From positions 14,446,001 to 14,510,000 of the forward strand of contig CATNEN010000039.1 in NCBI GenBank assembly GCA_950097015.1: a stretch of DNA of 64,000 bases, written 5' to 3'. The DNA is from Macrostomum hystrix (taxonomy: Eukaryota > Animalia > Platyhelminthes). Of the stretch, positions 15,167 through 42,280 are shown one piece after another. Position 1 is the stretch's first letter. Each line of letters begins with the position of its first letter. The notes under the pieces are model-generated. The model saw only the letters and a list, made by a program, of their open reading frames with translations, was not told where the DNA came from and made no database searches. The position numbers and the translations under genes were made by a program.

Positions 15167-15533
15167 GGGGGTCGGTGGCAGAGCGGTTAACGCATTTGCC
15201 TCTCGCACTACGGTCCCTAAGTTCGATTCCACGGCGAGGCCACATTTATTTGGGGCGCAGCCGCAGGGAAAAGGCTTGGGGGCTTGTCGTGCAATTTACG
15301 CCCTTAAGGGCCAACCTCCAAGGCACAGTGAAATGTACACTGCCTGACGATGAGAAAGTCAGGGCAGATGTACACACCTGTGTGAGCGTGTGCCTGTGTA
15401 CAGTATCTGTGAGCGTGTGTGCTCAGGAGTCAGCGAAATGGGCAGAATTGCCTCCTCGCTGGCTGCGGGTCTAGTGTCACCAAATGATGTACCTTTGACC
15501 GCAGCCCTCCTGCAATTATTATTATTATTATTA
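15167..15533 (+). mobile_element. Full-length tRNA-derived SINE (family A) with target-site duplication
   Basis: A box tggcagagcgg, B box gttcgattcc, (ATT)n tail, and direct repeat taaagctagcctaaag at 15151-15166 and 15534-15549. Confidence 0.92.
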
Positions 15534-16523: not shown

Positions 16524-19500
16524 TCATTCCATCGCGTCGTCATCATTGTATTGCCGACTCTCTAGACGATCTCCGTCTGACTCTTCGTTAGCCTCTCTGC
16601 GTCTGCTCTTTCGCTTCGTCAGTCTGTCAGCAAAGTGCCTGCTCAGGTTTGAGTCCAGGTGAGTCAACGGTCGGTCAAGTCTGGCAGCGGTCTCCACCGC
16701 TTGCACTGTGCGCACCTCGTATTTTTCAGCTGCGTAGGCGACTGAGAATGGAGAACCGGAGCTGCCGACACGGCCGATGCGGCCGAGCCGATGCAGGTAC
16801 AGGGCGGGGAAGCCGGGTAGGTCGCAATTGATGATCTGGCTACACGCGCGAGTATCTAGGCCGCGACTAGCCAAGTCGGTGGAAATCAGCATCTGCACAG
16901 GGGGATGCGATGCGACTGGGTGTTAGTAACTGACTCTATCCAAAGAACTAGCTTTTCTAAACTTTTCACAAACTAGTTATTGCTCACGGTCCTCCACCTT
17001 CACACACAAGTATAGACATACACAGAGGACTCACGGTCCTCCACCTTCACACACAGGTATATACATACACAGAGGAATCACGGTCCTCCACCTTCACACA
17101 CAGGTATATACATACACAGAGGACTCACGGTCCTCAACCTTCACACACAGGTATATACATACACAGAGGACTCACGGTCCTCAACCTTCACACACAGGTA
17201 TATATATACACAGAGGACTCACGGTCCTCCACCTTCACACACAGGTATATACATACACAGAGGACTCACGGTCCTCCACCTTCACACACAGGTATATACA
17301 TACACAGAGGACTCACGGTCCTCCACCTTCACACACAGGTATATACATACACAGGGGACTCGCGGTCCTCCACCTTCACACAGATGTATATACATACACA
17401 GGGGACTCACGGTCCTCCACCTTCACACACAGGTATATAAATACACAGGGGACTCAGGTCCTCCACACAATTATACCATGGCTGTACGAATATATATCGT
17501 AATATTTATCCATACGATATCTATAGTAGTAGAAATGAAAGTTAATTAAAGCAATTGGAGGCAGTTAATGCGAAAAGCAATTGAAACTTGCTTCATTGCT
17601 TCTTTTTTCGACCCTTCATGACTGCTTAACGGGATTCTATTTTAGGGGCAGAATAAGTTTTCTTGACTGTATCGGCACCAGGCAGTTGCATAAGACATAG
17701 ACGCCTAAACCTGATTGCAGTGCGTCAAGCGTCATGGTCATGGATGACGAGGAGGATAGTATGACTCGACGCCGCAAGTGGATGCGAAATTACATGCAGA
17801 AACGCGGGCAGTCAGCAAGACGCGGTCATGGCAACGCTAGTCGCGAACGTTCGCCGTTCCGAGCCTTAAATGCAACTGCACCGAGTTGCTCAGTCGCTAG
17901 CGGCTCTGGCAACCGCATCATCGACAGTGACAGTGAGCAGGTCCCCCTCGTCGCCGGCTCGAATGCAGACGATGAGTGCCAGTCACGTTCGGACACACAC
18001 GACGATTCCGCTGGCACCTCCATAGCGTCCCACCACACTGCCGTACAGGTCGACGAAGAGGACGATGTGGAACTCGATGGGGGTAAGCATCGTTGCATCA
18101 ATGCAATTCTAAAACATTTTCACCGACTTCTCAAAGACACCACTGTAGTGTACATTCCTGCTCCACGTCTCCCACATAGGCGACCTCGACGGCGGCTCGA
18201 ATGCAGACGAAGAAGGTGGAGACGAAACTCGTCCACTCGACGCCAGGCTGCTAGAGCAATGGTGCCCGGGACTGCCGCATACTTTAGGCGAAGCGCTTTA
18301 TGAGGTTAACTCGTGCGCGGAGGACCTCCGACTGTCCCGTGAGAAGTTTACGAGACTGCTGAAATGCTGCACCGCCTCGTGCCTAACAACAAGCTGCGCA
18401 GCACTGTGAGCTGCGCGGGATGCAATGAAGTCAGCTCAGTCTTTTTCTGGAAGAACACCTTGCTGGACAGTCTGCAACGATTGTACATTCTGGCATGATG
18501 CTAATCTGGCACGGATTTCTGCGTCCACTGCGGAGGACGCAGCGTTGCAAATTTCTGGCACTTCGACATTCAGATGCAGTTGCAGGCAATGGTAATGTGG
18601 CGTGGAATGCTCGACAACATTGTCTTCCCTGCCGACCGGGACGTGGATCCCGAGATTCTCAGCTTGGGTAGCAGTGATTTATACCAAGACTTCCTGGACA
18701 GCATTGACGCTGAAAGTCACAGCGACATTTCGGCGATAATCTGTTCGGATGGCTTTCCGCTGAAGACGACAAGTGCAGTGGAAGTGTGTCCGTTTTATCT
18801 GTGCTTCGTCGAGGTGCCCGACAGATACAAGTTACGATATGTACTGAAACTGGGAATCTGGGTAGGAGCAAAAAAGGTGCATCCGGAGGCATGTCTGCCT
18901 AAAGATAGTTGATGGACTCAACCATCTGCGCCTCAACGGTATTTCGTACCGTTGAGGTTTCGATGCGATGGTGATATGATGGCCGAGGCGATCGCTGCTG
19001 TCAACCAGCTTGGCAACGATATTAAGCAGAAAAAGCGACTGCGTGAGCCTGCCTCCGGTGTTGGAGATTTGTCCAATAAATATTGCTTATTTATGTAGTC
19101 TGGTGATGTGGCGACACATACTCTTAATCGTATACTCTTAATAGTTTTTTTCCAGTCAGTTTATTTCAATCATAATTTTTCATAATCATAATTTCGGCAG
19201 CTGTATCAGTGCTTTGCTATACCTTATCATATTCTCATTGCTTTGTGCTTTTTCAGTGTTACTTTTAGTATATAACTGAATTATTTCATCGAAATATAAC
19301 TTCAATAACATCAATCCTTTTGTCAAGTTCTCTCCCTCCATTAAATTCACACAGGTGTCGTTCCGTTTTCGCTCATTGCATCAATTTTTATACGCTTAAT
19401 CATCTCAAATCTGAAAATTTCGAACACTTTCTATCGCTTTCTGGACTAATTATCCATAAATCTTTAAATTCAGCTTTTCAGGTTGAAAAAATAAAGTTTC

Positions 19501-22458
19501 GATCGAAATGTTTTCGTCAAATGACTTCGTTAATTGCATTTGATGCTTTTATCTATTTTGTGTTTGATGATGGGTCATGGTCAATCCTGATTGAAAATAA
19601 GTTTTCTTGTTGGTTTTTTTGCTATGAATTTGTTTGCACAATTAAAGTTCTGCACAGTCCTGCTCAAATTGTCTATAGTTAAAATTGATTAAATGTAAAT
19701 TGATTAAAAATGCACGCTGGATTCGCTATATGTACTTGGCAATTGATTATACTGACTTATATTGTAGGACGACTATATAGTATGAAAAATATAAATGATG
19801 TGCCGCTAATTAACTAGACTAGATAGGCTATAGCAACAAAATTCTTAACTGAAACTTCTTGGCCGCACATGTTCAGACTTGAGAGTTACTTGCCGAACTT
19901 GTTAAGTACTTTCCAAGTACTTCTCAAGTTTTAGCACAACGCTTACTAAGCACTTGTTAAGTAGTTACAGTTTCCATTTTGCGGGTATGACAACACTATC
20001 TACCTGAGAATATGACAACACTATCTACCTGAGAATATGACAACACTATCTACCTGAGAATATAAACCTATCTACCTGAGAAAGGGACAACCTTTTCTAC
20101 CTGAGATTATGATTACAACAATATTTACCTAAGATCATGACAACAAAAGCAGCAAGTATGTTTTAACCCACCGGAAGCTGTCCATCAGAGAATGCCTTCA
20201 TCAGGTCGCGCCTACGCGAGACCCGTAGATTGCCGTGCAAAGCGACAGCATCATTAGAATCAACAGCATCGGCCAGCTCCTTGGCTGTGGCCACAGAGTT
20301 GCAGAACACAATAGTAGACAATCTACGTTGGAGATTGCGCCGAATTCGAGCCAAGCAGAGCGCCTGTTTCGTGTCCCGACTGGCTCGGATAAACAGCTGG
20401 GCAGTTTGAGCAGGCGGCCGGTGAGCAAACGGTGTGGCTACTTTGAAAAATGACTCACTGGGCACCAGACCAGGACCAAGGGCTTCGTCTAGGCTTGGCG
20501 GCATGGTGGCTGAGGCTAGCACCACCTGATGGATCGATACGGAACAAGGCGTGAGGTTTTATTAGGGGTGAGATTTGCTTGTTTGGTGTGAGATATGCTT
20601 GTTTGGGGTGAGATATGCTTGCTTGGGGTGAGATATGCTTGCTTGGGGTGAGATATGCTTGTTTGGTGTGAGATATGCTTGCTTGGGGTGAGATATGCTT
20701 GTTTGGTGTGAGATATGCTTGTTTGGTGTGAGATATGCTTGTTTGGGGTGAGATATGCTTGTTTGGTGTGAGATATGCTTGCTTGGGGTGAGATATGCTT
20801 GTTTGGGGTGAGATATGCTTGTTTGGTGTGAGATATGCTTGCTTGGGGTGAGATATGCTTGTTTGGGGTGAGATATGCTTGCTTGGGGGAGGGATACTTG
20901 TTTTGTGAGCGTTTTGTTTGTTTAGAAAGAGCTCAAAAGAGGCAAGATTTACTGTGGAAGAAACTCTCAAATGATTTGCTACTGAGATTCTGTTATCTTA
21001 TCACCGATCTGTTATCTCACCACGTTAACCCAGCCCTAACGAACTCACCTGAGTTCCCAAAGGTATTCCTCCCTGCGGCCGCTCAGTCTGCAGGAACAGG
21101 CGCCTCATCATGCGGCCCAGATCCCGTCTAAAAGAGTCGTCAAGCAGGCAGTCGGCTTCATCCAGTACGCAGGCGGTTGGCATCAGAGGCTGGCCGATAT
21201 CACTTCGCATTCGCAGCAGCTCGTCTAGTCCATTGGGAACGCCGACAATTACAGAGAATGCGGGCGAATCAGCCGGTTGGACATTGGTTAAAGCCGCTGC
21301 CGCCTCGGTTGCCACGCCAACCAGTAGATCCAATCGCGAACAAAGATCCTTAGCAACCGTAGCTATCTGATCAGCCAAATCCATTGTTGGACAGGCGATT
21401 AAAATGCATCTAAGATTGCGTTTTACACCTTCCGGCATTGACAGCAGGTTGCTAAGCAACGGAGCCAGGTAGGCCAGGGTCTTGCCATTGCCGGTCTCGG
21501 CTAAACAGGACGTGTTGCAGCCGGACAACAGTGGACCAGCAGCCATGCACTGGATCAAGGTTGGCCGCTTCGATCTCACACTGGCTGCGGCGGCTGCTGC
21601 CACGCTCGGATGTAAGCCGAGCTGGGCAAAGTCTGAGATTGGAGACTCGATGTTTACCTGGTGGAAGCTGTTGGATCGGCCCTGGAATGACGGTTGGGGT
21701 TTAGGGGCGGATAGGATGGGTTTAGGGGCGGATAGGATGAGTTAAGGGGCGGAAAGGATGGGTTTAGGGGCGGATAGGATGAGTTAAGGGGCGGAGAGAA
21801 TGAGTTAGAGGGCGGAAAGAATGGGTCAAGGGGCGGAAAGGATGGGTCAAGGGGCGGAAAGAATGGGTCAAGGGGCGGAAAGGTTGGGTTTAAGGGCGGA
21901 AAGAATCGGGTCAAGGGGCGGAATGAATGGGTCAAGGGGCGGAAAGGATGGGTTTAGGGGCGGAAAGGATGGGTTTAGGGGCGGAGAGAATGAGTTAGAG
22001 GGCGGAGAGGATGGGTTTAGGGAGACCTGGGAGCCTGGGAGACCACGGATAGTTTGACGAGCGAATATGGATACACTGAAGCTAACCTGAGCCAATATGG
22101 TGAAATAATCGCCCACACTCTTGGAGGCATTGAGCCAGGAGCCGCTAGCCAGCAACTGGTTGCCAAAGCTGGGCGGATAAGCCTGGCCCACAATGCAATT
22201 CTTGCGCTTGTCCTTGGCAACAATCAGCATGCGACTGCGCTGCTTTTCGGACACGTCGCGATGCTTTTCAACAAACTCGGCGTCCCTACGCAGCAGGCCC
22301 TGAGGTAGTAAGATTCGCTCCGGCTCGGGATCCGGCGTAGGGCCGCCCTCAGCTTCCAACAGGACGCGAGCTCTAGCACGACTGTGATAGGCTGAGCACT
22401 GCAGCTGCCGCTGCTGCTGCTGCAGGCGGAACAGCAGGCGATTGATGATTCCAGACTG
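16524..22458 (-). CDS. DDX28: DDX28-like mitochondrial DEAD-box RNA helicase, 4 exons, no genomic initiator ATG
   Basis: Exons 22458-22087, 21681-21049, 20525-20172, 16892-16524, all phase 0 with GT-AG junctions. Q motif (DFAQLGL..PTLIQ), AETGNGKT, DEAD, SAT, TDLASRGLD, HRLGRIGRVG; N-terminal LASGSW...GDYFTI resembles DDX28. Confidence 0.85.
16983..17466. repeat. 47-bp intronic minisatellite, ~10 copies
   Basis: Unit ggactcacggtcctccaccttcacacacaggtatatacatacacaga. Confidence 0.95.
17734..19985 (+). mobile_element. Decayed CACTA/EnSpm DNA transposon inside DDX28 intron 3
   Basis: Frame-broken transposase segment SDGFPLKTTS..VCPFYLCFVEVP...LGIWVGAKK resembles animal EnSpm transposases. Candidate right end tttgcggg at 19985 with subterminal acttgttaagta repeats; left end not seen. 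Confidence 0.7.
19986..20145. repeat. Short degenerate 25-bp tandem repeat
   Basis: Unit tatgacaacactatctacctgagaa, next to the donor at 20171. Confidence 0.8.
20565..20888. repeat. 21-bp intronic minisatellite (DDX28 intron 2)
   Basis: Unit gagatatgcttgtttggggtg. Confidence 0.95.
21696..22022. repeat. 21-bp G-rich intronic minisatellite (DDX28 intron 1)
   Basis: Unit approximately gggcggaaaggatgggtttag. Confidence 0.92.
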
Positions 22459-22474
22459 CTGGAAACAACAGAGG

Positions 22475-23580
22475 GGAAGATTAATCTGAGGATCTGGGAT
22501 AGGGTTATGGGGGAATTAATCTGAGGATCTGGGATAGGATTATGGGGGAATTAATCTGAGGATCTGGGATAGGATTATGGAGGAATTAATCTGAGGATCT
22601 GGGATTAGTTTGTCGGGAAGATTAATCAGAGGATCTGGGATTAGGTTGTCGGGAAGATTAATCAGAGGATCTGGGATTAGTTTGTCGGGAAGCCCTGTAA
22701 AAAATTCGGCTGCTTCTTCGGCGGGTTTTTGTGCAAAATAGGAGTGGAATCTACCAAAATCCCCCCTATCTCGCAAGAGTTAAAGAAACCACCCAGGAAG
22801 CAGCCGATAAAACCGTAAATTGTGCGGAAACCGCCGAAGAATCACCCGAACCAGTGGCCCATGGGACAACCAGATAATTATTTACGGGCGATTCCTCGGC
22901 GGTTTCTGAGCATGGAATCTTCCGAACTGGAGGATTCTTTGGGTGATTCCATTTCGCCACCAAGAATCACCGAGAAAACGCCCAGTTGGGTAGATTCTAA
23001 GCATGGAATCAACCGATTGGTATGTTTCCAGCGTTCGGCTGTTTCTTTTTCTGGAAACACCGCAGATTCCAACTGGAATCACCCAAAGAAACATCCCTAT
23101 TTTTTAGCGGGAGATTAATCTGAGGATCTGGGATTAGGTTGTCGGGAAGATTAATCTGAGAATCTGGGATTAGGTTGTCGGGAAGAATTATTTGAGGATC
23201 TGGGATTAGGTTGTCGGGAAGATTAATCTGAGAATCTGGGATTAGGTTGTCGGGAAGATTAATCTGAGAATCTGGGATTAGGTTGTCGGGAAGATTAATC
23301 TGAGAATCTGGGATTAGGTTGTCGGGAAGATTAATCTGAGAATCTGGGATTAGGTTGTCGGGAAGATTAATCTGAGAATCTGGGATTAGGTTGTCGGGAA
23401 GAATTAATCTGAGGATTTGGGATTAGGTTGTCGGGAAGAATTATTTGAAGATCTGGGATTAGGTTGTCAGGAAGATTAATTTGAGGATCTGGGATAGGAT
23501 TCTGGGGGAGTTAATCTGAGGATCTGGGATAGATTGTAAGGGAGATAAATCTGAGGATCTGGGATGGAATCGTAGGGAGA
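22475..23580. repeat. 36-bp minisatellite in the PPIL4-DDX28 spacer, split by a MITE
   Basis: Unit ggaagattaatctgagaatctgggattaggttgtcg. Confidence 0.93.
22693..23111. mobile_element. Non-autonomous CACTA/EnSpm-like MITE, 419 bp
   Basis: Imperfect TIRs ccctgtaaaaaat / atttttagcggg; 2-bp TSD (ag) restores the interrupted repeat unit; many direct and inverted ggaatc-like subterminal motifs. Confidence 0.8.
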
Positions 23581-23778
23581 TAAAATATTACTAAATCCTA
23601 AAATCTAAGCTAGGACCATAAACTGGAAACTGCCGCAAGCGATTAGGAAATATAATTATATTAACGAATGCACACAGATTATAAATTTACAAATTTAGAT
23701 TAATGACAATGTTTAGTTCGCACATGCAACAGGGAGTACGGTTTCGCGATTGTTTGCTAAATGCCTGAGTTATCATCG

Positions 23779-26278
23779 TTAGTGCTTGTGTGACACTCGC
23801 AGGTCGCTTCTATCGCGAGATTCGCTGCGAGATCTGGAATGAGATCTTCTATTGGACTTCTTTGACATCGGCTTTTGAATGCGTCCTGATTTAGACCGCC
23901 GCTCGGGACTCGGAGACCGTCTGGTCCTCGGTCGCTGCTCGGGACTCGGAGACCGTCTGGTCCTCGGTCGCTGCTCGGGACTCGGAGACCGTCTGGTCCT
24001 CGGTCGCTGCTCGGGACTCGGAGACCGTCTGGTCCTCGGTCGCTGCTCGGGACTCGGAGACCGTCTGGTCCTCGGTCGCTGCTCGGGACTCGGAGACCGT
24101 CTGGTCCTCGGTCGCTGCTCGGGACTCGGAGACCGTCTGGTCCTCGGTCGCTGCTCGGGGACTCGGAGACCGTCTGGTCCTCGGTCGCTGCTCGGGACTC
24201 GGAGACCGTCTGGTCCTCGGTCGCTGCTCGGGACTCGGAGACCGTCTGGTCCTCGGTCGCTGCTCGGGACTCGGAGACCGTCTGGTCCTCGGTCGCTGCT
24301 CGGGACTCGGAGACCGTCTGGTCCTCGGTCGCTGCTCGGGACTCGGAGACCGTCTGGTCCTCGGTCGCTGCTCGGGACTCGGAGATCGCCGCCTTTTGTA
24401 CCCATTACCAGCAGGACTCGGAGACCGCTGTCGTTGCCTCGACTTGCCACCACGAGAAGCAGAAGCCGCTTTGTCTCGCCTAAAATCGCGCCACACCTTG
24501 GCAACAGACTGGCAAAAGTCGACATGAATGCGTCGATCGTCGATGAGCACGTTGTCCATTTTAAAATAGGCAGCTTCGCAATCTTCCGCTCGTTTGAATT
24601 CAATAAATGCGTATTGAAGGGATTCGCCTGCGAATGAGTATACGAGGATCAATATGCGCACCTGTTAAAGACTTCAGCATTTCATTTAACTAGTTCTCCA
24701 TACCTTCGGGTGTTAAACATAGCTCTCTCCCTTGTTCTCCCACCCAGTTCTCTGCCTAATTCTACCATCTACCCGACCTCCAGCGGCTCACCAGTTCGCT
24801 TGCTGCGAATAACCTCGCAGGAATGAATGTCGCCGAATCGACTAAAAATGGTTTCAAGATCCTCGTCTGAAGTAACGGGATTTAACTTGCAGACGAATAG
24901 TACATTGTCCGGTGGCTTAACATCCTCGTCTGGCAGGTCGCCAATCATTGCCAGCAGGCGAGCGTTTGACTCAGCCTCTCGCTGCTGACGATATTCAGCC
25001 GCCTCCTCCTGGGTCAGTCCCTCCGTGTCGTCTATAGCGTCCTCGGCGCCAATGCGATCGGTTCGGGCGAGCTGGTCTATGGAGGGCTCCGGCGACCTGG
25101 TTGGGAAGATTGGCTGATGCTTTTTTGGTTGGTTTGCTCTTGGGTAGGTCAATTAGAGGGTTGGGTAGGTCAATTAGAGGGTTGGGTAGGTCAATTAGAG
25201 GGTTGGATAGGTCAATTAGAGGGTTGGATAGGTCAATTAGAGGGTTGGATAGGTCAATTAGAGGGTTGGATAGGTCAATTAGAGGGTTGGATAGGTCAAT
25301 TAGAGGGTTGGGTAGGTCAATTAGAGGGTTGGATAGGTCAATTAGAGGGTTGGGTAGGTCAATTAGAGGGTTGGATAGGTCAATTAGAGGGTTGGATAGG
25401 TCAATTAGAGGGTTGGATAGGTCAATTAGAGGGTTGGGTAGGTCAATTAGAGGGTTGGATAGGTCAATTAGAGGGTTGGATAGGTCAATTAGAGGGTTGG
25501 GTAGGTCAATTAGAGGGTTGGGTAGGTCAATTAGCGGCTTGGGTAGGTCAATTAGCGGGTTGGGTAGGCCAATTAGCGGCTTGGGTAGGCCAATTAGTGG
25601 GTGGAGTAGGTTTTCTGATTGGTTGGGTAGATTGGTTAGCGGGTTGGGTAGGTTGGTTAGCGGGTTGGGTAGTTCAGTAATTGGCAGTTCCAGTGTGTTA
25701 GTTAGTAGGTGGACAGTGGATCGAGTATGTCGAATTTGAATATAAATAGCAGACCTGTCAGGAATGACGAGTCCAGGTGGATCAGGGAACGGGTCGTCCA
25801 GCACAATGGTGTGGTAGATGCGCACATCCTGATATGGTCGATGATCCCGATCGCAATAGACTTCGTTGAGCTTGTCCAGTGTGTCGAATCCCTCGGCAAC
25901 CTGGCCGAACACGGTGTGCTCGCCGTCTAGGGAGTCCAAGGCGTCGCCAAGAGTGAAAAAGAACTGGGAGCCGTGAGTGCCGGAACCGCTATTGACCATG
26001 CTGATACAGCCGCGTCTAAGGTGCTTCATCTTTGGTCGTAGCTCGCGGTCGAAGAATCTCTCGCCGCAAAGATGGGCGTAGATTGACTCACCGCCTCGCC
26101 CGGTACCGGTAGGGTCGCCTGACTGAGCAACCAGGCCCCGTTGTACTGAATGAAACAGGCACAAATTGTAATACTTAATTTTGCAGAGTTTTAGAAAATT
26201 TTCACTACATTTTGGTCGCTCGCGGCAGTACAAATCCACTGTTAGATCGCCTAGGGATGTCTCGATTAGCACCGACAT
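23779..26278 (-). CDS. PPIL4: PPIL4 cyclophilin-RRM-RS protein, 3 exons, apparent +1 frameshift in the coding repeat
   Basis: Exons 26278-25755, 25096-24792, 24627-23779. Cyclophilin domain ([11 protein letters not shown]...GSQFF), IPDR|SPEP junction, RRM ([12 protein letters not shown]...SLQYAFIEF). An extra G at 24157-24160 moves the as-read stop to 23891. Confidence 0.93.
23902..24385 (-). repeat. Coding 36-bp minisatellite ([12 protein letters not shown], ~13 copies)
   Basis: Nucleotide-identical units inside the last PPIL4 exon, apart from one extra G. Confidence 0.95.
25141..25672. repeat. 21-bp intronic minisatellite (PPIL4 intron 1)
   Basis: Unit gggttggataggtcaattaga. Confidence 0.95.
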
Positions 26279-26385
26279 GAGTGACAGCTGTGGATCGGGT
26301 AAAAGTTAATTCAATAATTTAGACATTTATCAGTTCATTAATACTCGATGTCTACCTCATTTACACTTATATGACTGACCCACTG

Positions 26386-27015
26386 GCCAACTGATCACTC
26401 TATTACTCAACCATTTTATCTGACTGATCACTCTATTCCTCACCCATTTTAACTGACTGATCACTCTATTCCTCACCCATTTTAACTGACTGATCACTCT
26501 ATTCCTCACCCATTTTAACTGACTGATCACTCTATTCCTCACCCATTTGACCTGACTGATCACTCTATTCCTCACCCATTTTACCTGACTGATCACTCTA
26601 TTCCTCACCCATTTTAACTGACTGATCACTCTATTCCTCACCCATTTTAACTGACTGATCACTCTATTCCTCACCCATTTTACCTGACTGATCACTCTAT
26701 TCCTCACCCATTTTAACCGACTGATCACTCTATTCCTCACCCATTTTACCTGACTGATCACTCTATTCCTCACCCATTTTAACTGACTCATCACTCTATT
26801 CCTCACCCATTTTAACTGACTGATCACTCTATTCCTCACCCATTTTAACTGACTGATCACTCTATTCCTCACCCGTTTTACCTGACTGATCACTCTATTC
26901 CTCACCCGTTTTACCTGACTGATCACTCTATTCCTCACCTATTTTACCTGACTGATCACTCTATTCCTCACCCATTTTACCTGACTGATCACTCTATTCC
27001 TCACCCATTTTACCT
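26386..27015. repeat. 33-bp minisatellite in the BUD31-PPIL4 spacer
   Basis: Unit ctgactgatcactctattcctcacccattttac/aa. Confidence 0.95.
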
Positions 27016-27366
27016 GGTTGGTTACCATTTAACTTAAACATTTCAACTGACTTTTCTTCAACTGATATTTCAAACAAAAAACAAAAATACAATGCTGGTG
27101 GATTTGCCGATAAAACTTTCAAATTGTAATCGAGTTTGTTTTATAATTAGATTTCACAGATAATAAATGAGCCAATTGTGGCTAATTGAAACGATGAATA
27201 GTCACATGAAGCAGTTGATAGACAGAACAATTGTCGGGATAATGTATAGCAGAGCACTTACTGGAGTGCACATTGGGGATTACAGTGAATGCAGTTAGTA
27301 TGCAGCGGATATTTTTTGCTGATAAAACTGTCTCATTATTACCCAAGTTGCAGTTGAATACAACTG

Positions 27367-27801
27367 CTAGCCTGAACAGCCGCGACAGCCGCAATTCTGG
27401 CATTCAACAATTTTGCCCTCTTCCAATTTGCTTTTGGGCACGCGGCAGATGCAATTGGTGGCAAAATTGGTGTCACGACTCTGAATGCATCTTAGACAGC
27501 AGAGATTCTCGTAGCCCTGCTTCTTCCATTTGGCCATTAGGCTGGCGTCGGCTAGTTTCTCTTTTATACAATAGTCGAACAATTCGCGAGAGATAGCCTT
27601 GCGCTTGTGATATAGATCGAATATGTAGCGAGTGCGCTGGTGATGAATGCGAAATATTGGCCATTCGGCTTCGACCTTTCTCTTGCCCTCGTGCGGCTCG
27701 CGTTCAGCTTCGCGCATTTTTCTACTTAGCTCCTCCAGAGTAGGCTCAATCATCTCGTAGCCATCTGGCGGCGGCTTCTTTGTGCGCCTAACCTTGCCCA
27801 T
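27367..27801 (-). CDS. BUD31: BUD31/G10 spliceosomal protein, 144 aa, intronless CDS
   Basis: [14 protein letters not shown]...[14 protein letters not shown]...[12 protein letters not shown]...CICRVPK...CGCRGCSG; length matches the family. Confidence 0.97.
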
Positions 27802-28841
27802 CTTAGCTGATTGGCTGCAGCACAATGTTAAGATTTTAATCTATTAGTGGATGTGTACTCTATGACAGTATCTTAAATATGCAATAGAATTGGATTAAAT
27901 ACGAGTATATATTGATAAAACTTTACAAATCCCACTCACAACTTACAATTGTTTTCTGAACTGTCAGCCCTACTATATTTTATATAGTTTTACATTGTAC
28001 TTTTTTAACTAATTTAATTCAAATAAATTAATTAAACTATATAACTAGAGTTTTATTTAAATTTAATTACCAAAGTATTCAAATTACAAAAAATAGGATA
28101 AATTAGTTTTTTAGTCAACAAAATTATTTACAATATTTAATTACAAGATTGACAACCTTCATTTCCAAGCCTAAAATTAAACTTTTAAACCATGTTGGCA
28201 GATAAAAAGTTAATATTATTTTTGCTAATTATCTAAGAGTTTTTGTGAAAAAGCTTTTAATAAGCCTGAATTTGATGGTCTTTGTTTTATTAAGCATATT
28301 CTAACAAAACACTATTAAACATAATAAAAAGTCTACAAAAACATATCAAGACTTATCCTTTGTATTGCAACTGCAATTGAATATGTGCAAATTGAATAAA
28401 ATTGTTTAAATGCATAATATTTTGTAAAATATACTGTAATTATTAGAATATTAGAATATAGAATACCAGAATAACTGAGATATGATACCAAGATAAAACT
28501 AGATACCTTACCAGACTAACTAATTATGCTACCCAGAAGTTATTTTTTTATATGTATAAAATACATTCTCAGAGACAAATTCTAAGAAAGCTCTACAACA
28601 ACCTTAGTGGCAGTAATAATGAAATTACTTAGAGTTTATGGGCAGTTTCATGAGGAAGTCATCAATAAGATTGCTTTTTTATAAAAGTGAATATTTTTTC
28701 TACATGACTGTTTTGATCACAGTACCCCTACAATCATTTCAATGTTCCATGGGACATTGAAATTATAAAGACAATATATATGTTCTTGGAATTCAAGCCC
28801 TTCAGAGATACTGTTAATAAATTTTTTATATGCCTTAAAAT

Positions 28842-29660: not shown

Positions 29661-31108
29661 AAGTTCTGGTAGTTCTAATTTTTTATATCCTACAAGTTGT
29701 TTACACATTTTTGATATAATGTCTAAGTAATTTCAATTAGTCTCCTAGATTAGAATGTATATTGTATATATAAAAAATAATTTCTTGGTAGCCTATTTAG
29801 TCTGGGAGCATATCCAGTTAGTCTAAGTATTGTATATAGTTATTCTGAGTATCATATTTAGTTATTCTGGGTTATTTTGTCTAGGTAGTGTATTTAGTTA
29901 TTCTGGCCAATTACTTTCTACTTCTCTATCTTGAATTCTTTTAGCATTTGTCTCCATATATTTTAAGAAGAACAGAAGATTACTTCAAAGTACAATTCTA
30001 TATAAACTTGGTATTAAACCATAAGTTGATTTTCTTTTCTTCTAGTCATCTGTATTTATAGTCATTTTAGTCAAAATGGTGGACAACTTATAACAATAAT
30101 ATTATTTACTCTAAAATAACTTTTTTAAACAACTTTTATTCAGTAAAACTAGAAGTTGAAAATTTATACAATAAATTTCTTTGAAATGTTTTGTTTTAAA
30201 TGGCCAAACTAAAAAAATAAGATTCTATTTCTTGAACTTTTAGTAAATTATCATAATAATGATTATTTATAAAGATATTATAAAGATTATGCAAGATTAT
30301 TATTTGCATTTACCCATATCATTTAAAATGATTGTCTTCCAAAACTTCGGGGTGCTATTCCACTTTGTAACCTTTAGTTCTTTTTTAATTAGGGGCCTAT
30401 GTATTTCAACTAACTTTGTTATGTTAACTACAGATAGGCCTATATAATATTAAAGTTTTAGGATTCTGATCATTTTAGGGGCAAATTTCTTTTTGAAATG
30501 ATTGTTATCTAAAACTGAAACAATAGATACAGTCTTACTTGGAATAAGATCTAAAAGAGAAGTGCTACAGTTTTGCAAGACAATCATTTGAATGAGAATT
30601 ATGACATAAAATGATTGTCATCTGAAACTAATATATGTGGTCTAGATTGTAATATATAAATATATGGTCCTAATTTCAAAATAAGTACTGAAATCATTTG
30701 GGCATTGGTATTACTCCCAATGTCAAATTTTTATTCTCTGGAAATCATGTGCACTGTTGCTTAAAAAATAAATTTTAATTCTTTAGAATGATGTTTACAT
30801 GTAAAATCAGTTGACTTTGCAATGATTATCTGAAATAATTATTATAGATATAGACACTAGGCCCTATATCAATGGCATGAACCTAGAATCCTAGCACTTG
30901 TGATATGGGCCACTATTTATGTTAGGCCTATGTAGAATCAGCTTGAAATGCTAATATTTATTGAACATTGGTGCAATGTAAAAGTTCCCATTTGCCATCA
31001 GCATTGCTAGACATCAGAAAATCTGTCAATGTCAGCCAAAATTGGATTACCTGTCATTAAATATAGACATAGCCACACACTGCTTTAGGCCTAACATTTG
31101 AAACATCA

Positions 31109-31389
31109 CATACATGCGCAACCTCCCAAATCTTAGGCGGCCGTGCAACTTAGTTTTTGCTCTTATTTGCGACTTAGTTCGTTTCATTGCTCTATTTACG
31201 ACTTAGTTTGCTCTCATTTGCTCTCTTTTTCTCTCCCCTTTTTCCTTTTCTTCACGCCTTCCTTTTTTGTCCCTTGGTCCCCCCTTTGATTTTTTTGCGC
31301 TTGATCGATTGGTTTTTGCGACTTACCTTGCTTGGCCCTTGTTTCACCCGGCCAGTTCGGCCGGGTCGGCCGGGTGTTGCGCATGTATG
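31109..31389 (+). mobile_element. MITE family B (hAT/P-like), 281 bp
   Basis: 14-bp TIR catacatgcgcaac; 8-bp TSD aaacatca. Confidence 0.92.
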
Positions 31390-31533
31390 AAACATCAGGC
31401 AAGTGCAAGCATTTTGCCATAGATATATCTGCGCACATTTGGCTCTATGCACTGCAACATCAACAAGTTTAAATTAAATTAAACATTTAGAATGACAAAA
31501 TGTTTAAAAACAAATGAATTTAATGTTTTGGTA

Positions 31534-31819
31534 CATACATGCGCAACCTCCCAAATCTTAGCTGGCCTTGCGACTTAGTTTTTGCTCTTATTTGCGACTT
31601 AGGCCTAGTTCGTTTCATTGCTCTATTTACGACTTAGTTTGCTCTCATTTGCTCTCTTTTTCTCTCCCCTTTTTCCTTTTCTTCACGCCTTACTTTTTTG
31701 TCCCTTGGTCCCCCCTTTGATTTTTTGCGCTTGGTCGATTGGTTTTTGGGACTTACCTTGCTTGGCCCTCGTTTCACCCGGCCGGTTCGGCCAGGTCGGC
31801 CGGGTGTTGCGCATGTATG
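31534..31819 (+). mobile_element. MITE family B, second young copy
   Basis: Same TIRs; TSD gttttggta on both sides. Confidence 0.92.
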
Positions 31820-32254
31820 GTTTTGGTAAATAGACCCTACTTGACATGCAAAACTAGAGAATTACCTGCAACAGCTAGGCCTAGTCTTAAGTATTTACAA
31901 AGGCCTAGTAAACAAAGCAGTAGGCCTACACAGTTATTTTTAACAATGAGCTTGTTTACAACAACTATTTTTATGCAGTTATTAGGCCCTATATATATGG
32001 TGACCATACAGACAACAAAATGTCAATTTTATATGGTAGTAGTAGTAGAGTGTTGGTTCAGGCAAGCAGCCTGTTTTTCCTATATTGAGTAGGCCTATTT
32101 GTTAAATATTCAAGTGTTCAATACAAAATAATTTTTAGCTACTATAATTAAAATTAAATTTGCAGACGCATATTTGGTAGGCATTTTTTAATTTGTACGA
32201 AAAGGGGGAACGAGTATAAAACGAGGTAGAGCGAAAGAGGTAGGGAAGTGGCTA

Positions 32255-35650: not shown

Positions 35651-38376
35651 CTGCTGTACCGGTTCAACCAGTTGACCAGGTAAAAACAGTCTATGTGTTG
35701 CCCTTGAGTGATGTAATAAAATTAATTTCCTAGCTGGAGCGTGAGGAATTTAAAGGAATTTTAAGGAATTTGCTGTTCGTATCCGTACTGCTGGGCTGCA
35801 CGATGCTGCTAGCGATGCTGCTTGCGCTGTTTATTTGGCGCCGTTGGTTTTGTTGTTGATTTTTTATATTTTTCTTTTGAATCTTCTTTTCATGTGTTGA
35901 TGTATTGAATGTAGCTCGCATATTGTATTGAAAGCTCTGTCTGAAAGTGTGCTGAAAAATCAAGGCGGTAAAAGTCTAAACTCAATAACAAAAACGGACC
36001 GATTTCCGTTGCAAATCTGAAGTATGCCAGGCTCGTAATATTTTATGACAAAATATATCTCTATATAACTCTATTTGGAACATATATCTCTGTTCCAAAT
36101 TATTTTTTAACACTCTGTGCAAGCCGCACAATGATCAGTTAAACCTGCTTTATGTTTGAAAGTAGTCATTTTGTGCCCCTAAAGCACGAACAAAGAAGCA
36201 CGAGAGGCCCAAACTTTGCGAAAGCAGCAGCAAAACGAAGAGGAAGCGACAAAGACAACAAAGAAAGGAGGGTAAGCGACAAAGAGTCACAACGAGACAG
36301 AATGAGGAACTTCAACTAGAGTCCCTACACCATATCCGCAAACACGGCGGATGCCGCCATGCCCTGCTGAATCTGCGGGAGGTACCGCTGCACTGCATCG
36401 GCTGTCTGCTGAGAAGTGCTCACGCTTGAAGCCGGCCACGTCTAGCTTCTCAGATAGAAATCGATCGAGCAGCCTGCTGGTCAGCAGCCGCTGATTGCCA
36501 CCAGCATCGCGGTAGCAAAGAAGGTGCCTCGGCTGATTTCAGGGTGTTAAATCTAGCGTGCTTCTCGATTGCCAACACCGCGCACAGTGGCGGCCGCCTC
36601 GCTAGCCTCGGTAGAAGCACCTGCTGGAGCACAAGCTCTTTGAACTGGAGAGTTTTCCCTTGCTCCAGACGCAAGATCAGGCCTCACGGATGTCAAAGAG
36701 TGTCAGCGCAACGCACACGTGCCCGACCTTTCCCGTGGCCATGGCAGTAAGCTAGACATGCCCCACCAACAGCAGACAGTGACTGCCCAGCTGAAGGCCA
36801 TCAGAAGAGTTGACTCGTCGATGAACTTCCAGCAACATAAGCGGCGAAATAGGTCGCTTCCTTGACACTACGCAGTCCCAGCTCTCGTTTGGCGCCTCGC
36901 AGAAGGAGGGCAGTAGCGGCATTCTTTGTCAGATCCGGCGCCGAGTTGACATGCGATGCAATGCTGCTTTAGTCGAGCATCCGCGTCCTAACTAGGCTGG
37001 CCAGCAGATAGTTAAAAAAGACTGTTCAGCGGCCAGGAACTTGACAGTGTCAGTGCCAGCCATGATTCAGCGATTGGCTTAGAGTTCAGCTAAAAAAAAC
37101 TTCGCCAAAACGCGGCCTGCTTAATGGAACGATGGAATAAAATACCCCGCGCCGGCGGAGGGGCGGGTGCACACCTAAGCGAGACAGGTTCTATTCTTTC
37201 GATTTAGGAGTTTGGAAAGGTTCTAAAATGTTTAAGATCTTTAGAGAGGGGGTGCTTCTTGCTCTTTGCAATTCCGTACTCTATATGGGGCATCATTTCC
37301 CATTGCATGACGAATAGCAACGAGTACAGCGTTAAGGTCCACTACTATTTTACGAGCTATATGAGCTAAAAAAGTTAAATTACAGTATCTCACTAGGGCA
37401 GCCCGACAGAATGGGCAACCGCGCTGGACGACCCATCCAAATTGGGTACGGGGCATGCTCCGGCAACCCTTTAGGTGCGTCTGGCCTCGGCTCTGAGGGA
37501 AAGGTGCCACTGTCAGGCTTTTTACCTCGCTCACGAGTAGACTCCGCACCTGCTTTCAGCTATCGCCTCTGCTAATGCCCGCTACAAACCCGGTCCCTCC
37601 GGCTTCTGCTATCGACAGCACCGTTGCCTTCTGCCGGCCCCTTCCCACCTGGATCAGGAAACGAAAACCGGCCGCTCCAAACGGTCGAAGAACCCGGCCG
37701 CCGCCGGCACCAGCGTAGCAACCAGCGAGGGCGGGAAAAGAAGGCCGCTGCGCTCACGGCAGGCAACGCTGCCATTCCTGCACCCAGCGGACAATACGAT
37801 GGTACACTCAAAGCCGGCACATCTCAAAGTCAGGAGCAACACTACCTGTCTCCCCCTCGCTCTCATTTCCTGAATAGGCCACACTAGCAGTCACTGTGTC
37901 AGGTAACCCTGTGTCAGGTACCCCTGTGTCAGCCAACCCGCGTCAGTCGGTGGTTACTGCCGCGGGAAGTGCAGCTTCAACATCGGTTGTTAAGACGTCA
38001 CTTGTGGTTGCAGAATGATCGACAACCCTAACAACAGCCCAATCAAAGCAAATGAATATTCTCGCCAACGGAGAGACAAATACAGAAGAGTTTATATTCG
38101 AGTGAGACTAAGAACCGAGAAGTCACTGAGTGGGAGATTTAATTTATATTGAATATGGGAAAAGTAGCAAACAAGTTAGACAGGCCGTCCGCCGTCACAA
38201 CAGCAGCGCGCGTGTCGCGATACAGCGACATGACCGCTGCAACTAGCTGCTCTGGAACCCGGTAGGCACGGAGGATGAATGGAAGCGCGGCTCTCGACAC
38301 CGAGTCAAACGCCTTGCGAAATCAAAGGGGCTGGACAAAGGGGTGAGTGGGTCAGCAGCTAGTGTCGCTGCCTCAC

Positions 38377-38660
38377 TGTAGTGCAGTCGTTTAGTGGTAG
38401 GAGAAAACTTCACTGGCCTCTGTGGACCGTGTATATACTATACGAGCATATATATTGTACGCCGCCACGTGCGGGCGAGGCGTTAGGCAATAGCATTTGT
38501 CAGGGCGCGTGGGCGGAGAGTGTGAGTGCGCGAGGCAGACCACTACATCTCTCCCCCCCACTACACTCACTTTCCAATGGTCGCTGGTTCGTTCCTCGCT
38601 CCAAGTCACGATTATTTCGGGGCTTGGTTGGAGGTTTGCGAAGTGGTGACTAGCGGAGAT
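38377..38660 (-). mobile_element. 3' end of a Gypsy element: LTR 38377-38547 plus polypurine tract
   Basis: On the minus strand, GGGGGGGAGAGA directly precedes a 171-bp TGTAGT...ACTACA segment containing a TATA-like stretch. Confidence 0.75.
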
Positions 38661-38749
38661 GCACAGATGACCGGGAGTCGCCTGCCACCTGCCCGTGGAG
38701 CCACGGTGAGGAAGAGTCGGTCACGCATGCGGTCACATCAGGTGGCAGG

Positions 38750-40719
38750 CGTCTCTGACGCTGCTGACGGCTCAAGGCAGCGGCCACCGGCCTCTGCGGC
38801 TTCATCGATGGGCCGACCGCCTGCTCGCGTACGACTTCCAAGTCTGCCACGTTCCTGGCAAGAAGAACATCGTGCCTGATTTTTTGTCGCGCCACGGCGC
38901 TCTCGGAGCAAAATGCCCAAGGCAAAGCGAAGAGGACTCGACCGAGCTCCAAGTGAATGCCGTACTGCCCAAGGCAAAGCGAAGAGGACTCGACCGAGCT
39001 CCAAGTGAATGCCGTACTGCTGTCGGGCGCGCTGGAGATTGTCAGTCCAAGCGAACTGGCCGAGGCATCCCTGCAGGACCCGGTGATCAATGAGGCGGTC
39101 ACAATGACGCTCCAGGGGTGGCCTAACTCCATCAAGCAGCTGAAGCCGGAGCTGCAGCCGTTCTGGAGGATGCGGACGCAACTGGCGCTCTGAAATGACG
39201 GCAAGTGCCTGGCCAACGGCACCCGAGCAGTAATCCCCGCATCCCTGAGGGAGAAGACGCTGCAGCTGGCGCATTTCGGGCACCTCGGCGTGAGCAAAAT
39301 GAAGCAGCATTGCCGGGACGCAGTCTGGTGGCCGCAAATCGATCAGCATATCGAGGCATTTGTGCGACATTGCGAGGCCTGCCTGCTTAGCGAGAAGAAC
39401 TTTAAGCCACCCAAGACGGTCCTGACCCCTACGAAGTGGCCGACGCGTCCATGGGAGGAACTCCAGCTCGACATCTTCGGGGAGCTGCACTCTGCGCCGA
39501 ACTCCTGTCGCTTCATCCTGGTGCTGTACGATTTGCATTCAAAGTGGCCGGAGGCTGCCTGCATGTCGACTGTCACAAGCGCGGATGTCATCGACGCCGT
39601 GAAAACGTGGTTTAGCCGCTGGGGCCTGCCGAAGAGCATTAAAACAGACGGAGGTCCGCAGTTCATGTCCGGCGATTTCGAGGATTTTCTTCAGCGCTGC
39701 GGCATCCGGCACCGGCAGTCACCGCACTACCACCCCCAGGGCAACGCGGCCGTAGAGCGCTTCAACCGTTTTCTCAAGGACGGCCTAAAGACGCACCTAG
39801 AGGAGGGCTACGACTTCAAGGACGCGGTGAAGACGCTGCTGTGGTCGTACAGGGCCACCCCGCATGCACTGACTGGAGTGTCACCGGCGGAGCTCATGAC
39901 AGGCCGGAAGATCAGCACCCCGTTGACAGCTCTGCAGCCAAGGACAACAGCACGGCACAGACTGGCGGCCAGCATCAAGCGGAGGCAGCAGCGCGTTTTC
40001 GATCAGCTCAACACGACCCGGAGGCCGCCGCCCACGTTCATAGTCGGCGACTGGGTGCGCGTGAAGCGGCCGTTCGCCCGCGGCAAGCTGAGCAGCCGCC
40101 TGTCCGAGCCACGGCAGATCTCCCGGATCGCGAGCGCGACCACCGTCATCCTCAGCGATGGCTCCCGCTGGCACGTCGACAACTGCGTCCGGGTACCGCG
40201 GCCAGCCGGAGCGCTGCCGCATTGGCCAGCGCCGGCTCCCAGCGCAGCCGGGACAGCCGCGGAGGCGGCGACGGCGGCAGACCCAGCGAGACAGCAGCAG
40301 CCAGCCCAGACAGCGATCCGAGTGAGCTCAAGGCCGCGAGCGCCGCCGCAATGGTACGGTGAAATCGTGACTCACTGACTCGTTTATTAGTGACGGTTAT
40401 TCAGCTGTTATTAGCGATCAGCTGTTTCGATTTTTTTCTCTTTGAAGTACCTGATGCAAAAAAAGATCATTTTACTCCTTCGATGCTTTGTAATGCACTT
40501 TTATTTCCTGCTCAATATTAGCATAATTATTTTCGTTGCTCTATCCTTTGAAAGGGAAGGTGAATGTTGTGCAGTTGATTAATGCACGTACATAGTTCGT
40601 ACATGTACACCTCTAATATCGATTGGCGCAGAATATATATAGTCCAATAACTGAGAGCCAACTTGGCGTGAAAGTTTCGGAAACTAACTTGGCTGACTCG
40701 CTACTATTCATTTACAACA
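38750..40719 (+). mobile_element. 3' half of a Ty3/Gypsy element: RNase H end, integrase, PPT and 155-bp LTR (40565-40719)
   Basis: RLHRWADRLLAYDF...NIVPDFLSR; HHCC (AHFGH..CEAC); DDE (LQLDIFG, KTDGGPQF, AVERFN); PPT aaagggaaggtgaa; LTR TGTTGT...ACAACA. Inactivated by a ~52-bp duplication near 38914-39017 and a TGA at 39191. Confidence 0.92.
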
Positions 40720-40868
40720 GTCTCAAATTATGTTTTTGCTAAATATGTGTACCATCGAGCAGAATTTTTCCCAACTAGCCCATTAAGTTTTGCAAAAACT
40801 ATTTTTTTGGTCTACCACCGTTAGCAAGGACTGCTAAAGTCTAGGAATGTATGTATCTATGGATATAC

Positions 40869-42280
40869 CTGACTCAAATCCCATGGGGCATCTCCTCACT
40901 CAAATCCCATGGGGCATCTCCTCACTCAAATCCCATGGGGCATCACCTCACTCAAATCCCATGGGGCATCACCTCCCTCCAATCCAATGGGGCATCACTT
41001 GACTCCAATCCCATGGGGCATCACCTCACTCCAATCCCATGGGGCATCACTTGACTCCAATCCCATGGGGCATCACCTCACTCAAATCCCATGGGGCATC
41101 ACCTCACTCCAATCCCATGGGGCATCACCTCACTCAAATTCCATGGGCATCACCTCACTCAAATCCTAAGGGGCATCACTTGACTCCAATCCCATGGGGC
41201 ATCACCTCACTCAAATCCCATAGGGCATCACCTCACTCAAATCCCATGGGGCATCACTTGACTCCAATCCCATGGGGCATCACCTCACTCAAATCCCATG
41301 GGGCATCACTTGACTCCAATCCCATGGGGCATCACCTCACTCAAATCCCATAGGGCATCACCTCACTCAAATCCCATGGGGCATCACTTGACTCCAATCC
41401 CATGGGGCATCACCTCACTCAAATCCCATGGGGCATCACCTCACTCCAATCCCATGGGGCATCACCTCACTCCAATCCCATGGGGCATCACCTCACTCAA
41501 ATCCCATGGGCATCACCTCACTCAAATCCCATGGGGCATCACTTGACTCCAATCCCATGGGGCATCACCTCACTCAAATCCCATAGGGCATCACCTCACT
41601 CAAATCCCATGGGGCATCACCTCACTCAAATCCCATAGGGCATCACCTCACTCAAATCCCATAGGGCATCACCTCACTCAAATCCCATGGGGTATCACTT
41701 GACTCCAATCCCATGGGGCATCACCTCACTCAAATCCCATGGGGCATCACCTCACTCAAATCCCATGGGGCATCACCTCACTCAAATCCCATGGGGCATC
41801 ACCTCACTCATGGGGCATCACCTCACTCCAATCCCATGGGGCATCACCTCACTCAAATCCCATGGGGCATCACTTGACTCCAATCCCATGGGGCATCACC
41901 TCACTCCAATCCCATGGGGCATCACCTCCCTCCAATCCAATGGGGCATCACTTGACTCCAATCCCATGGGGCATCACCTCACTCCAATCCCATGGGGCAT
42001 CACCTCACTCCAATCCCATGGGCATCACCTCACTCAAATCCCATGGGCATCACCTCACTCAAATCCCATGGGGCATCACCTCACTCAAATCCCATGGGGC
42101 ATCACCTCACTCCAATGCCATGGGGCATCACCTCACTCCAATCCCATGGGGCATCACCTCACTCCAATCCCATGGGGCATCACCTCACTCCAATGCCATG
42201 GGGCATCACCTCACTCCAATCCCATGGGGCATCACCTCACTCAAATCCCATGGGGCATCACCTCACTCAAATCCCATGGG
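40869..42280. repeat. 26-bp minisatellite with CCCATGGG palindrome, 3' of CFAP95
   Basis: Unit cccatggggcatcacctcactcaaat. Confidence 0.96.

What the first reader, a model, noticed from the sequence alone, without database searches (positions are those of the whole stretch)
16524..27830. Candidate eukaryotic operon BUD31 -> PPIL4 -> DDX28 of RNA-processing genes
Seen: three co-oriented genes with only ~1.1 and ~1.3 kb between CDSs, and about half or more of each spacer is minisatellite or MITE. Each gene begins just after a branch/pyrimidine-AG acceptor (27815, 26288, 22459) with no evident upstream exon. Established: SL trans-splicing resolves polycistronic transcripts in flatworms. Inference: one promoter drives two spliceosome-associated genes and a mitoribosome-assembly helicase.
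Basis: partly seen in the sequence, partly recalled or inferred. Interest (0 to 1): 0.8.

Follow-up and report, generated by a model that had tools for sequence, protein, structure and literature searches.

The report
Flatworm three-gene trans-spliced operon candidate
In a Macrostomum flatworm, three neighbouring RNA-handling genes start at splice sites that receive the worm's spliced leader (shown for two, likely for the third), so they likely form one operon of a kind already common in this genus, and the leader's own start codon likely begins the last gene's predicted mitochondrial address tag.

Summary
Observation confirmed to the base. Transcript contigs from public runs begin exactly at 27815, 26288 and 22459. 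The flatworm spliced leader (SL) is read directly at BUD31 (5 of 5 runs laid, 2 studies) and DDX28 (1 run). PPIL4 has an unprinted 21-nt overhang there (4 of 5 runs). The genes are BUD31, PPIL4 and DDX28 of a Macrostomum species other than M. lignano. With repeats removed, the spacers shrink to about 187 and 67 nt, which meets the published Macrostomum operon rule. PPIL4 and DDX28 also appear adjacent in M. lignano. A single promoter is not shown.

The SL's terminal AUG is in frame and would start an Arg-rich, acid-free, presequence-like N-terminus.

Both phenomena are known: about 15% of M. lignano genes lie in such operons, and SL-AUG initiation is described in flatworms. My searches found no paper on this trio, and the scan had not noted it on other DNA (two loosely similar notes only). 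Verdict: real, likely an operon, a new member of a known kind; interest 0.27.

The parts
27815..27816 (-). SL acceptor AG of BUD31
   Evidence: SL letters as loose end in X4, X5, X6 and X5, X7, X1: 5 of 5 runs laid, 2 studies
27803..27814 (-). Short upstream ORF that the SL AUG would create (Met + 3 codons + stop), out of frame, ending 1 nt before the BUD31 ATG
27367..27801 (-). BUD31 CDS, intronless, 144 aa
   Evidence: PF01125 E 2e-65; unbroken contigs
27103..27366 (-). BUD31 3' UTR; likely 3' end near 27103-27106, TATAAA at 27145, T-rich tract just after the end
   Evidence: contig ends in X4-X7 (contigs cannot prove an RNA end; X1 stops at 27155)
26289..27102 (-). Spacer 1: 814 nt, of which 627 nt is a 33-nt minisatellite (26390-27016) and 187 nt is unique
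26288..26289 (-). Likely SL acceptor AG of PPIL4; an SL AUG here would be in frame, 4 codons before the conserved ATG at 26278
   Evidence: 21 unaligned letters at 26288 in X4, X5, X6 and X7, letters not printed; frame
23779..26278 (-). PPIL4 CDS, exons 26287-25755, 25096-24792, 24627-23779; introns of 658 and 164 nt, GT-AG
   Evidence: joints
23897..24385 (-). 36-nt coding repeat (RS/SP-rich tail) with one 37-nt unit among 13 spacings; likely an assembly error
   Evidence: M. lignano orthologues end in an RS tail like the 23779 frame
22460..23612 (-). Spacer 2: 1153 nt, 67 nt unique; one 35/36-nt minisatellite split by a MITE. The PPIL4 3' end at 23613 rests on one contig; from the stop codon the unique part is 233 nt
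   Evidence: (X6 record 18)
22693..23111 (.). High-copy MITE, 13-nt terminal inverted repeat (11 of 13), 2-nt target duplication, inserted into the minisatellite
   Evidence: (loose ends at 22693 and 23111)
22459..22460 (-). SL acceptor AG of DDX28
   Evidence: 22 SL letters in X5; 22, 21 and 3 unaligned letters in X6, X7 and X4
22357..22458 (-). Predicted mitochondrial presequence, residues 2-35 after an SL-supplied Met: 6 Arg, no Asp or Glu, amphipathic stretch
   Evidence: composition only; no targeting predictor run
22228..22230 (-). First genomic ATG of the DDX28 mRNA in any frame (codon 78); Leu in M. lignano
16524..22458 (-). DDX28 CDS, exons 22458-22087, 21681-21049, 20525-20172, 16892-16524; 576 aa with the SL Met
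   Evidence: joints

Best explanation
BUD31 and DDX28 mRNAs carry the flatworm spliced leader at their first splice sites, PPIL4 likely does too, and the three genes are likely transcribed as one precursor from a promoter upstream of BUD31. Inferred mechanism: 3' cleavage and polyadenylation release each upstream mRNA. The downstream RNA is then cut and capped by SL trans-splicing at the next unpaired acceptor, as in the 'intercistronic-sequence' type of operon. The spacers were likely about 100-200 nt and have since swollen by minisatellite expansion and a MITE. The SL ends in AUG. At DDX28 this AUG is in frame and is the only ATG before codon 78, so it likely initiates translation of a predicted mitochondrial presequence. 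At PPIL4 it would add 4 residues; at BUD31 it would make a tiny upstream ORF. Shown: gene identities, exons, SL at two acceptors, spacer anatomy, reading frames. Inferred: SL at PPIL4, single promoter, precursor, use of the SL AUG, mitochondrial import.
For: (1) SL letters at 27815 in 5 of 5 runs laid and at 22459 in X5; a 21-nt overhang at 26288 in 4 of 5 runs. (2) Unique spacer lengths are 187 and 67 nt, against the ~100-nt mode and <1-kb repeat-adjusted rule for M. lignano operons (PMC8629364). (3) T-rich tracts follow the likely BUD31 and PPIL4 3' ends (T fraction 0.50 and 0.47 of 40 nt) but not the furthest DDX28 contig end (0.23). (4) M. lignano DDX28 (PAA58288.1) and PPIL4 (PAA58289.1) have consecutive accessions, both on a 178,627-nt contig. 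A frameshifted M. lignano gene model, P0132, fuses PPIL4 (residues 1-~400) to DDX28 (413-846) in the same order. DDX28 is only 72% identical between the species. (5) The nearest recognised same-strand gene upstream, CFAP95, ends at 42609; 0 of the minus-strand ORFs scanned between it and BUD31 reached a Pfam cut-off (ORFs of 30 aa or more, those starting in 37300-40300 and the 40867-42280 repeat left out). (6) DDX28: first ATG at offset 228 nt, no in-frame ATG upstream before a stop. The 47 residues up to that Met are 32 of 47 identical in M. lignano, which has Leu at that position. 0 of 506 body windows match the N-terminal composition. (7) About 7% of M. lignano transcriptional units are multi-gene precursors (PMC5730564); SL-AUG initiation is reported in flatworms (PMC9851317, PMC3510090).
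Against: An SL does not prove an operon: only about 40% of SL genes in M. lignano are assigned to operons, and BUD31 itself gets an SL as the likely first gene. Raw spacers (814 and 1153 nt) fail the 300-nt rule used for parasitic flatworms (PMC12582326). A MITE and minisatellites could carry promoter activity. SL letters at PPIL4 were not printed. The PPIL4 3' end rests on one contig. BUD31's position in M. lignano was not tested. The M. lignano DDX28 model has its own Met at residue 12, so strict dependence on the SL AUG may be limited to this species. In-frame near-cognate codons (CTG, ATC, TTG) occur in DDX28's first 40 codons. Four of the five runs laid belong to one study.
Confidence: 0.68

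Rival explanations
1. Hybrid arrangement: BUD31 has its own transcription unit or terminates most polymerase, and PPIL4-DDX28 is a two-gene operon with an internal promoter in BUD31's 3' region or spacer 1.
For: Only the PPIL4-DDX28 adjacency could be shown in M. lignano. Spacer 1 has the larger unique part (187 nt). Hybrid operons with internal promoters are known in C. elegans (recalled, not from a call).
Against: 187 nt of unique DNA must hold a 3' end signal and the branch/acceptor region, which leaves little room for a promoter and outron. The pair meets the published operon rule.
Confidence: 0.2
2. Three independent monocistronic genes, each with its own promoter and short outron, each SL trans-spliced, packed closely by chance or by shared chromatin.
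For: About 60% of SL genes in M. lignano are not in operons. Raw spacers are about 0.8 and 1.15 kb. The MITE in spacer 2 could be a promoter.
Against: Spacer 2 has only 67 nt (at most 233 nt) of unique DNA. The MITE looks like a later insertion into the minisatellite. The PPIL4-DDX28 order is kept in M. lignano.
Confidence: 0.12
3. On the start codon only: DDX28 starts at its own Met78 or at a near-cognate codon, not at the SL AUG.
For: Alternative AUGs near the SL AUG are common in flatworm SL mRNAs (PMC3510090). In-frame CTG, ATC and TTG codons lie in the first 40 codons.
Against: Met78 is Leu in M. lignano, and the region before it is conserved as protein (32 of 47). A start at Met78 would drop the Arg-rich, acid-free N-terminus. 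The SL AUG is the first AUG a scanning ribosome would meet (inference).
Confidence: 0.15

Closest known systems
SL trans-spliced operons of Macrostomum lignano (PMC8629364; precursors in PMC5730564)
   Same: Same SL 3' end; adjacent co-oriented SL genes; repeat-inflated spacers that fall to about 100-200 nt; three-gene size (18% of operons); conserved housekeeping genes
   Different: Another Macrostomum species; this trio is not named in the text I read. The M. lignano PPIL4-DDX28 pair is probably among the 10,458 genes counted there, but no gene list was readable
SL 3'-terminal AUG as initiator in flatworms (Cheng et al. 2006, seen only as cited in PMC9851317 and PMC3510090)
   Same: SL AUG in frame (DDX28, PPIL4) or out of frame (BUD31); required where the gene has no early ATG. 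A table in PMC3510090 marks in-frame SL AUG on respiratory-chain proteins
   Different: Free-living macrostomid rather than Schistosoma or Echinococcus; here the SL Met would head a predicted presequence of a mitochondrial helicase. One search found no flatworm paper pairing SL AUG with mitochondrial targeting
C. elegans SL2-type operons and Schistosoma operons with intercistronic sequence (PMC12582326, section 14)
   Same: Gap between the upstream poly(A) site and the downstream acceptor. The C. elegans cyclophilin-RRM gene sig-7 is also a downstream operon gene (third of CEOP1492; PMC4991786)
   Different: One SL serves first and downstream genes (no SL2 marker); raw gaps are 0.8-1.15 kb against a 99-nt median in S. 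mansoni; the partners of sig-7 in CEOP1492 were not checked

Membership tests
Macrostomum operon (rule of PMC8629364) | Immediately adjacent, same orientation, no opposite-strand gene between | tested here: met
   the spacers are repeats plus at most 187 nt of unique DNA
Macrostomum operon (rule of PMC8629364) | Downstream gene DDX28 carries the SL | tested here: met
   22 letters in X5; overhangs of matching length in X6 and X7
Macrostomum operon (rule of PMC8629364) | Downstream gene PPIL4 carries the SL | tested here: inconclusive
   21 unaligned letters exactly at the acceptor in 4 of 5 runs, the same length as the SL ends at the other two genes, but the letters fell outside the printed tables
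Macrostomum operon (rule of PMC8629364) | Repeat-adjusted intergenic distance under 1 kb | tested here: met
   187 and 67 nt from contig 3' ends; 461 and 233 nt even from stop codons
Operon candidate (rule of PMC12582326, parasitic flatworms) | Raw intergenic distance of at most 300 nt, or a chimeric gene model | tested here: not met
   814 and 1153 nt. The M. lignano chimeric model P0132 would meet the second clause in that species only
True polycistronic operon | One promoter for all genes | not testable with these tools
   No CAGE, ATAC or raw reads; only contigs were offered
True polycistronic operon | Precursor RNA spanning the cistrons | tested here: inconclusive
   No listed contig joins two genes; contigs drop rare forms and break at repeats
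SL-AUG-initiated ORF | SL ends in AUG, in frame with the ORF, and no earlier own ATG | tested here: met
   DDX28:
SL-AUG-initiated ORF | Initiation at the SL AUG in vivo | not testable with these tools
   Needs initiation profiling or a reporter
DDX28 helicases | DEAD plus Helicase_C domains, best match DDX28 among solved helicases | tested here: met
   (best hit only, no tree)
DDX28 helicases | Mitochondrial location and role in mitoribosome assembly | not testable with these tools
   Role recalled for human DDX28; here only a presequence-like composition
PPIL4 cyclophilins | N-terminal cyclophilin, RRM, low-complexity RS tail | tested here: met
   114 of 120 listed hits begin at the residue matching ATG 26278

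The most novel reading that the evidence does not exclude
A self-gating operon. It encodes two splicing factors, one (PPIL4, SIG-7-like) needed for trans-splicing in C. elegans, ahead of a mitochondrial helicase that cannot make its import signal without the leader's AUG. Trans-splicing capacity would then directly set mitoribosome assembly. The operon also works across about 1 kb of minisatellite and MITE, so flatworm polycistron resolution would not need the short fixed spacing of nematode SL2 operons.
Probability: 0.15. Interest if true: 0.55.

Novelty: new member of a known kind. Interest (0 to 1): 0.27.

Why it matters
Mainly as a clean test case. Macrostomum operons are so far defined by spacing and SL reads, and the genus has transgenesis (PMC5730564), so one construct could test both single-promoter control and tolerance of repeat-swollen spacers. 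DDX28 shows how gene finders miss SL-supplied start codons: the M. lignano models are 'partial', Met-less or fused. It also offers a simple read-out, mitochondrial import, for initiation at the SL AUG.

Tried and rejected
No whole genome is held, so the SL RNA gene and genome-wide spacer statistics were not examined. One search listed 7 runs, none on record as RNA; 5 of 7 were laid (X2 and X3, small shares, were not). X4-X7 behave as RNA because they skip GT-AG introns and carry the SL.

No contig cover in the minisatellite parts of the spacers or just upstream of BUD31: this says nothing either way. Contig depth at BUD31 is 93-195, against 13-15 at PPIL4 and 21-26 at DDX28 in X4-X7; the tool states that such depth cannot rank genes, so it was not used.

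A cis upstream exon was rejected: the SL motif is absent from the window, and no joint into any of the three acceptors from nearby DNA is listed, although spacer 1 holds 19 donor-like GT(A/G)AG motifs, 18 of them in the minisatellite. One 25-letter apparent joint from 22424 to a repeat at 29408 was set aside as a repeat match. The PPIL4 frameshift could not be checked because contigs break inside the repeat. No Rfam family in 12000-34000.

Exon 1 of DDX28 alone found no DDX28 outside M. lignano; 3 of the 6 hits other than P0001 and P0132 were fetched in part (P0134, P0135) and are unrelated, and P0133 and P0136 were not read. Metagenome scans: DDX28 found nothing; 0 of 16 BUD31 loci held PPIL4 or DDX28, but they are short and 70-78% identical in DNA. 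Two long Paragonimus PPIL4 models show no helicase domain.

Literature: BUD31+PPIL4+DDX28 together, 0 papers; Mlig013347, 0 papers. Supplements of PMC8629364 and PMC12582326 could not be read; Tables S20-S24 of the latter may show whether these pairs occur in parasitic flatworm operons.

Full report
What is there. The stretch holds three intact minus-strand genes. BUD31 is intronless (27801-27367; PF01125). The second gene has a cyclophilin domain, an RRM and an RS tail; its best hit is an M. lignano protein at 87% identity and most named hits are PPIL4. The third is a DEAD-box helicase whose best solved relative is DDX28; it is 72% identical to the M. lignano orthologue over 479 columns. The animal is therefore a Macrostomum species other than M. 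lignano; I did not narrow this further.

RNA evidence. One search listed 7 runs; I laid 5 (X4-X7 of one study, X1 of another), all as contigs. They skip five GT-AG introns, two in PPIL4 and three in DDX28. At 27815 the overhang is the 3' 20-22 nt of the SL printed in PMC8629364, in 5 of 5 runs. At 22459 the same 22 letters are printed for X5; X6, X7 and X4 have 22, 21 and 3 unaligned letters, and no X1 piece is listed there. At 26288, X4-X7 each have 21 unaligned letters, but the loose-end tables were cut before that row, so the SL there is inferred; the listed X1 piece does not reach it. The SL motif is absent from the window, so it is added in trans.

Spacers. BUD31 contigs end at 27103-27106 in X4-X7 (X1 at 27155), followed by a T-rich tract. 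One X6 contig ends PPIL4 at 23613. Contigs cannot prove RNA ends, so these are working values. Spacer 1 is then 814 nt with 187 unique; spacer 2 is 1153 nt with 67 unique. Spacer 2 is one minisatellite split by a 419-nt element with an 11-of-13 terminal inverted repeat and a 2-nt target duplication. PMC8629364 (parts 1-3 of 4 read) found that subtracting repeats gives a peak near 100 bp between SL genes. It called adjacent SL genes under 1 kb an operon and assigned 10,458 genes (about 15%) that way. This cluster meets that rule. It fails the 300-nt raw rule of PMC12582326 (passages and section 14 read), whose authors call that threshold very conservative. PMC5730564 (passages) reports that about 7% of M. 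lignano transcriptional units carry several SL sites and are precursors. PMC10468722 (passages) finds the SL conserved in two more species and notes that it likely ends in a start codon.

Conservation and limits. A frameshifted M. lignano model, P0132, runs PPIL4 straight into DDX28. Adjacency and order are inferred from these two records; I could not read the DNA. BUD31's place in M. lignano was not tested. In the window, the next recognised same-strand gene upstream is CFAP95, ending at 42609, with retroelement remnants between. Downstream, an ELM2/C2H2 gene has its first recognised exon about 6 kb beyond the DDX28 stop; its start was not mapped. BUD31 is likely first and DDX28 likely last.

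The leader's AUG. The SL ends in AUG (sequence). At DDX28 it is in frame; the first ATG of the mRNA in any frame is 228 nt on (codon 78), and no in-frame ATG lies upstream before a stop. The 47 residues up to Met78 are 32 of 47 identical in M. lignano, where Met78 is Leu, so that part is protein. The first 35 residues have 6 Arg and no acidic residue, with an amphipathic stretch in the 97th percentile of the protein. 0 of 506 body windows have no Asp/Glu and 5 or more Arg, and 0 of 120 PPIL4 N-termini lack Asp/Glu. This fits a mitochondrial presequence; no predictor was run, and the mitochondrial role of DDX28 is recalled (one search gave listings only). Against generality: the M. lignano model has its own Met12. 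At PPIL4 the SL AUG would add 4 residues, and at BUD31 it makes a short out-of-frame ORF. SL-AUG initiation is known: 28% in frame in S. mansoni (Cheng et al. 2006, seen only as cited in PMC9851317) and 143 of 187 clusters in E. granulosus (PMC3510090, passages).

How it most likely works. One promoter upstream of BUD31 makes a precursor. The outron is replaced by the SL at 27815; 3' end formation frees each mRNA; the SL is joined at 26288 and 22459 (0.68). Rivals: an internal promoter for PPIL4-DDX28 (0.2), or three separate SL genes (0.12). Separately, DDX28 may start at Met78 or a near-cognate codon (0.15). The promoter and precursor steps are not shown, and the contigs cannot show them. 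One side point: C. elegans sig-7, a cyclophilin-RRM gene that I take as the PPIL4 counterpart (same domains and 'sig-7' names among the hits; the paper's main text does not use 'PPIL4'), is the third gene of an operon, and its depletion impairs cis- and trans-splicing (PMC4991786, passages).

Novelty. The trio is not in print by my searches, and two supplements that could bear on this were unreadable. SL-resolved operons with repeat-swollen spacers and SL-supplied start codons are both described in flatworms. This is a well-supported new member of a known kind. Its best feature is that all three outcomes of the SL AUG (needed, optional, out of frame) sit in one unit. Interest 0.27.

Noticed in passing
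window:16893-20171: DDX28 intron 3 (3279 nt) holds a broken transposon on the opposite strand (ORF pieces 17701-18303 and 18505-18912). The atlas gives a weak Transposase_21 (CACTA/EnSpm) lead, score 0.91; Pfam finds nothing.
   Followed up: partly
window:23897-24385: The PPIL4 RS tail is encoded by a near-perfect 36-nt minisatellite (13.6 copies). M. lignano orthologues have a different 12-13-residue repeat with varying copy number: a coding minisatellite that has turned over between species.
   Followed up: partly
window:26390-27016: The 33-nt spacer minisatellite carries a 5'-splice-site-like motif in 18 copies just upstream of the PPIL4 acceptor; no cis joint from it is listed.
   Followed up: partly
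window:22460-22500: Only 20 nt of unique DNA precede the DDX28 acceptor; the branch-like motif at -26 lies inside the last minisatellite unit, so the repeat may have grown from the branch-point region.
   Followed up: no
window:42609-46500: CFAP95 gene on the minus strand, at least four exons, ending at 42609.
   Followed up: partly
window:4837-10376: Minus-strand gene with C2H2 zinc fingers and an ELM2 domain, resembling TRERF1/ZNF541 (name recalled).
   Followed up: no
window:51258-64000: Plus-strand protein kinase gene, CDKL-like by its motifs (name recalled; Pkinase hit), with a minisatellite in nearly every intron.
   Followed up: no
window:32694-33159 and 36000-40400: Reverse transcriptase fragments and an integrase ORF of LTR-retrotransposon type between CFAP95 and BUD31.
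   Followed up: no
window:28700-29660, 31100-31830, 15176-15434: Two dispersed repeat families upstream of BUD31, with further copies in the window and very high contig depth.
   Followed up: no
P0075 and P0130: Paragonimus westermani PPIL4 models of 907 and 1130 aa run on into an unrelated region with no Pfam match, possibly chimeric models of another operon.
   Followed up: no
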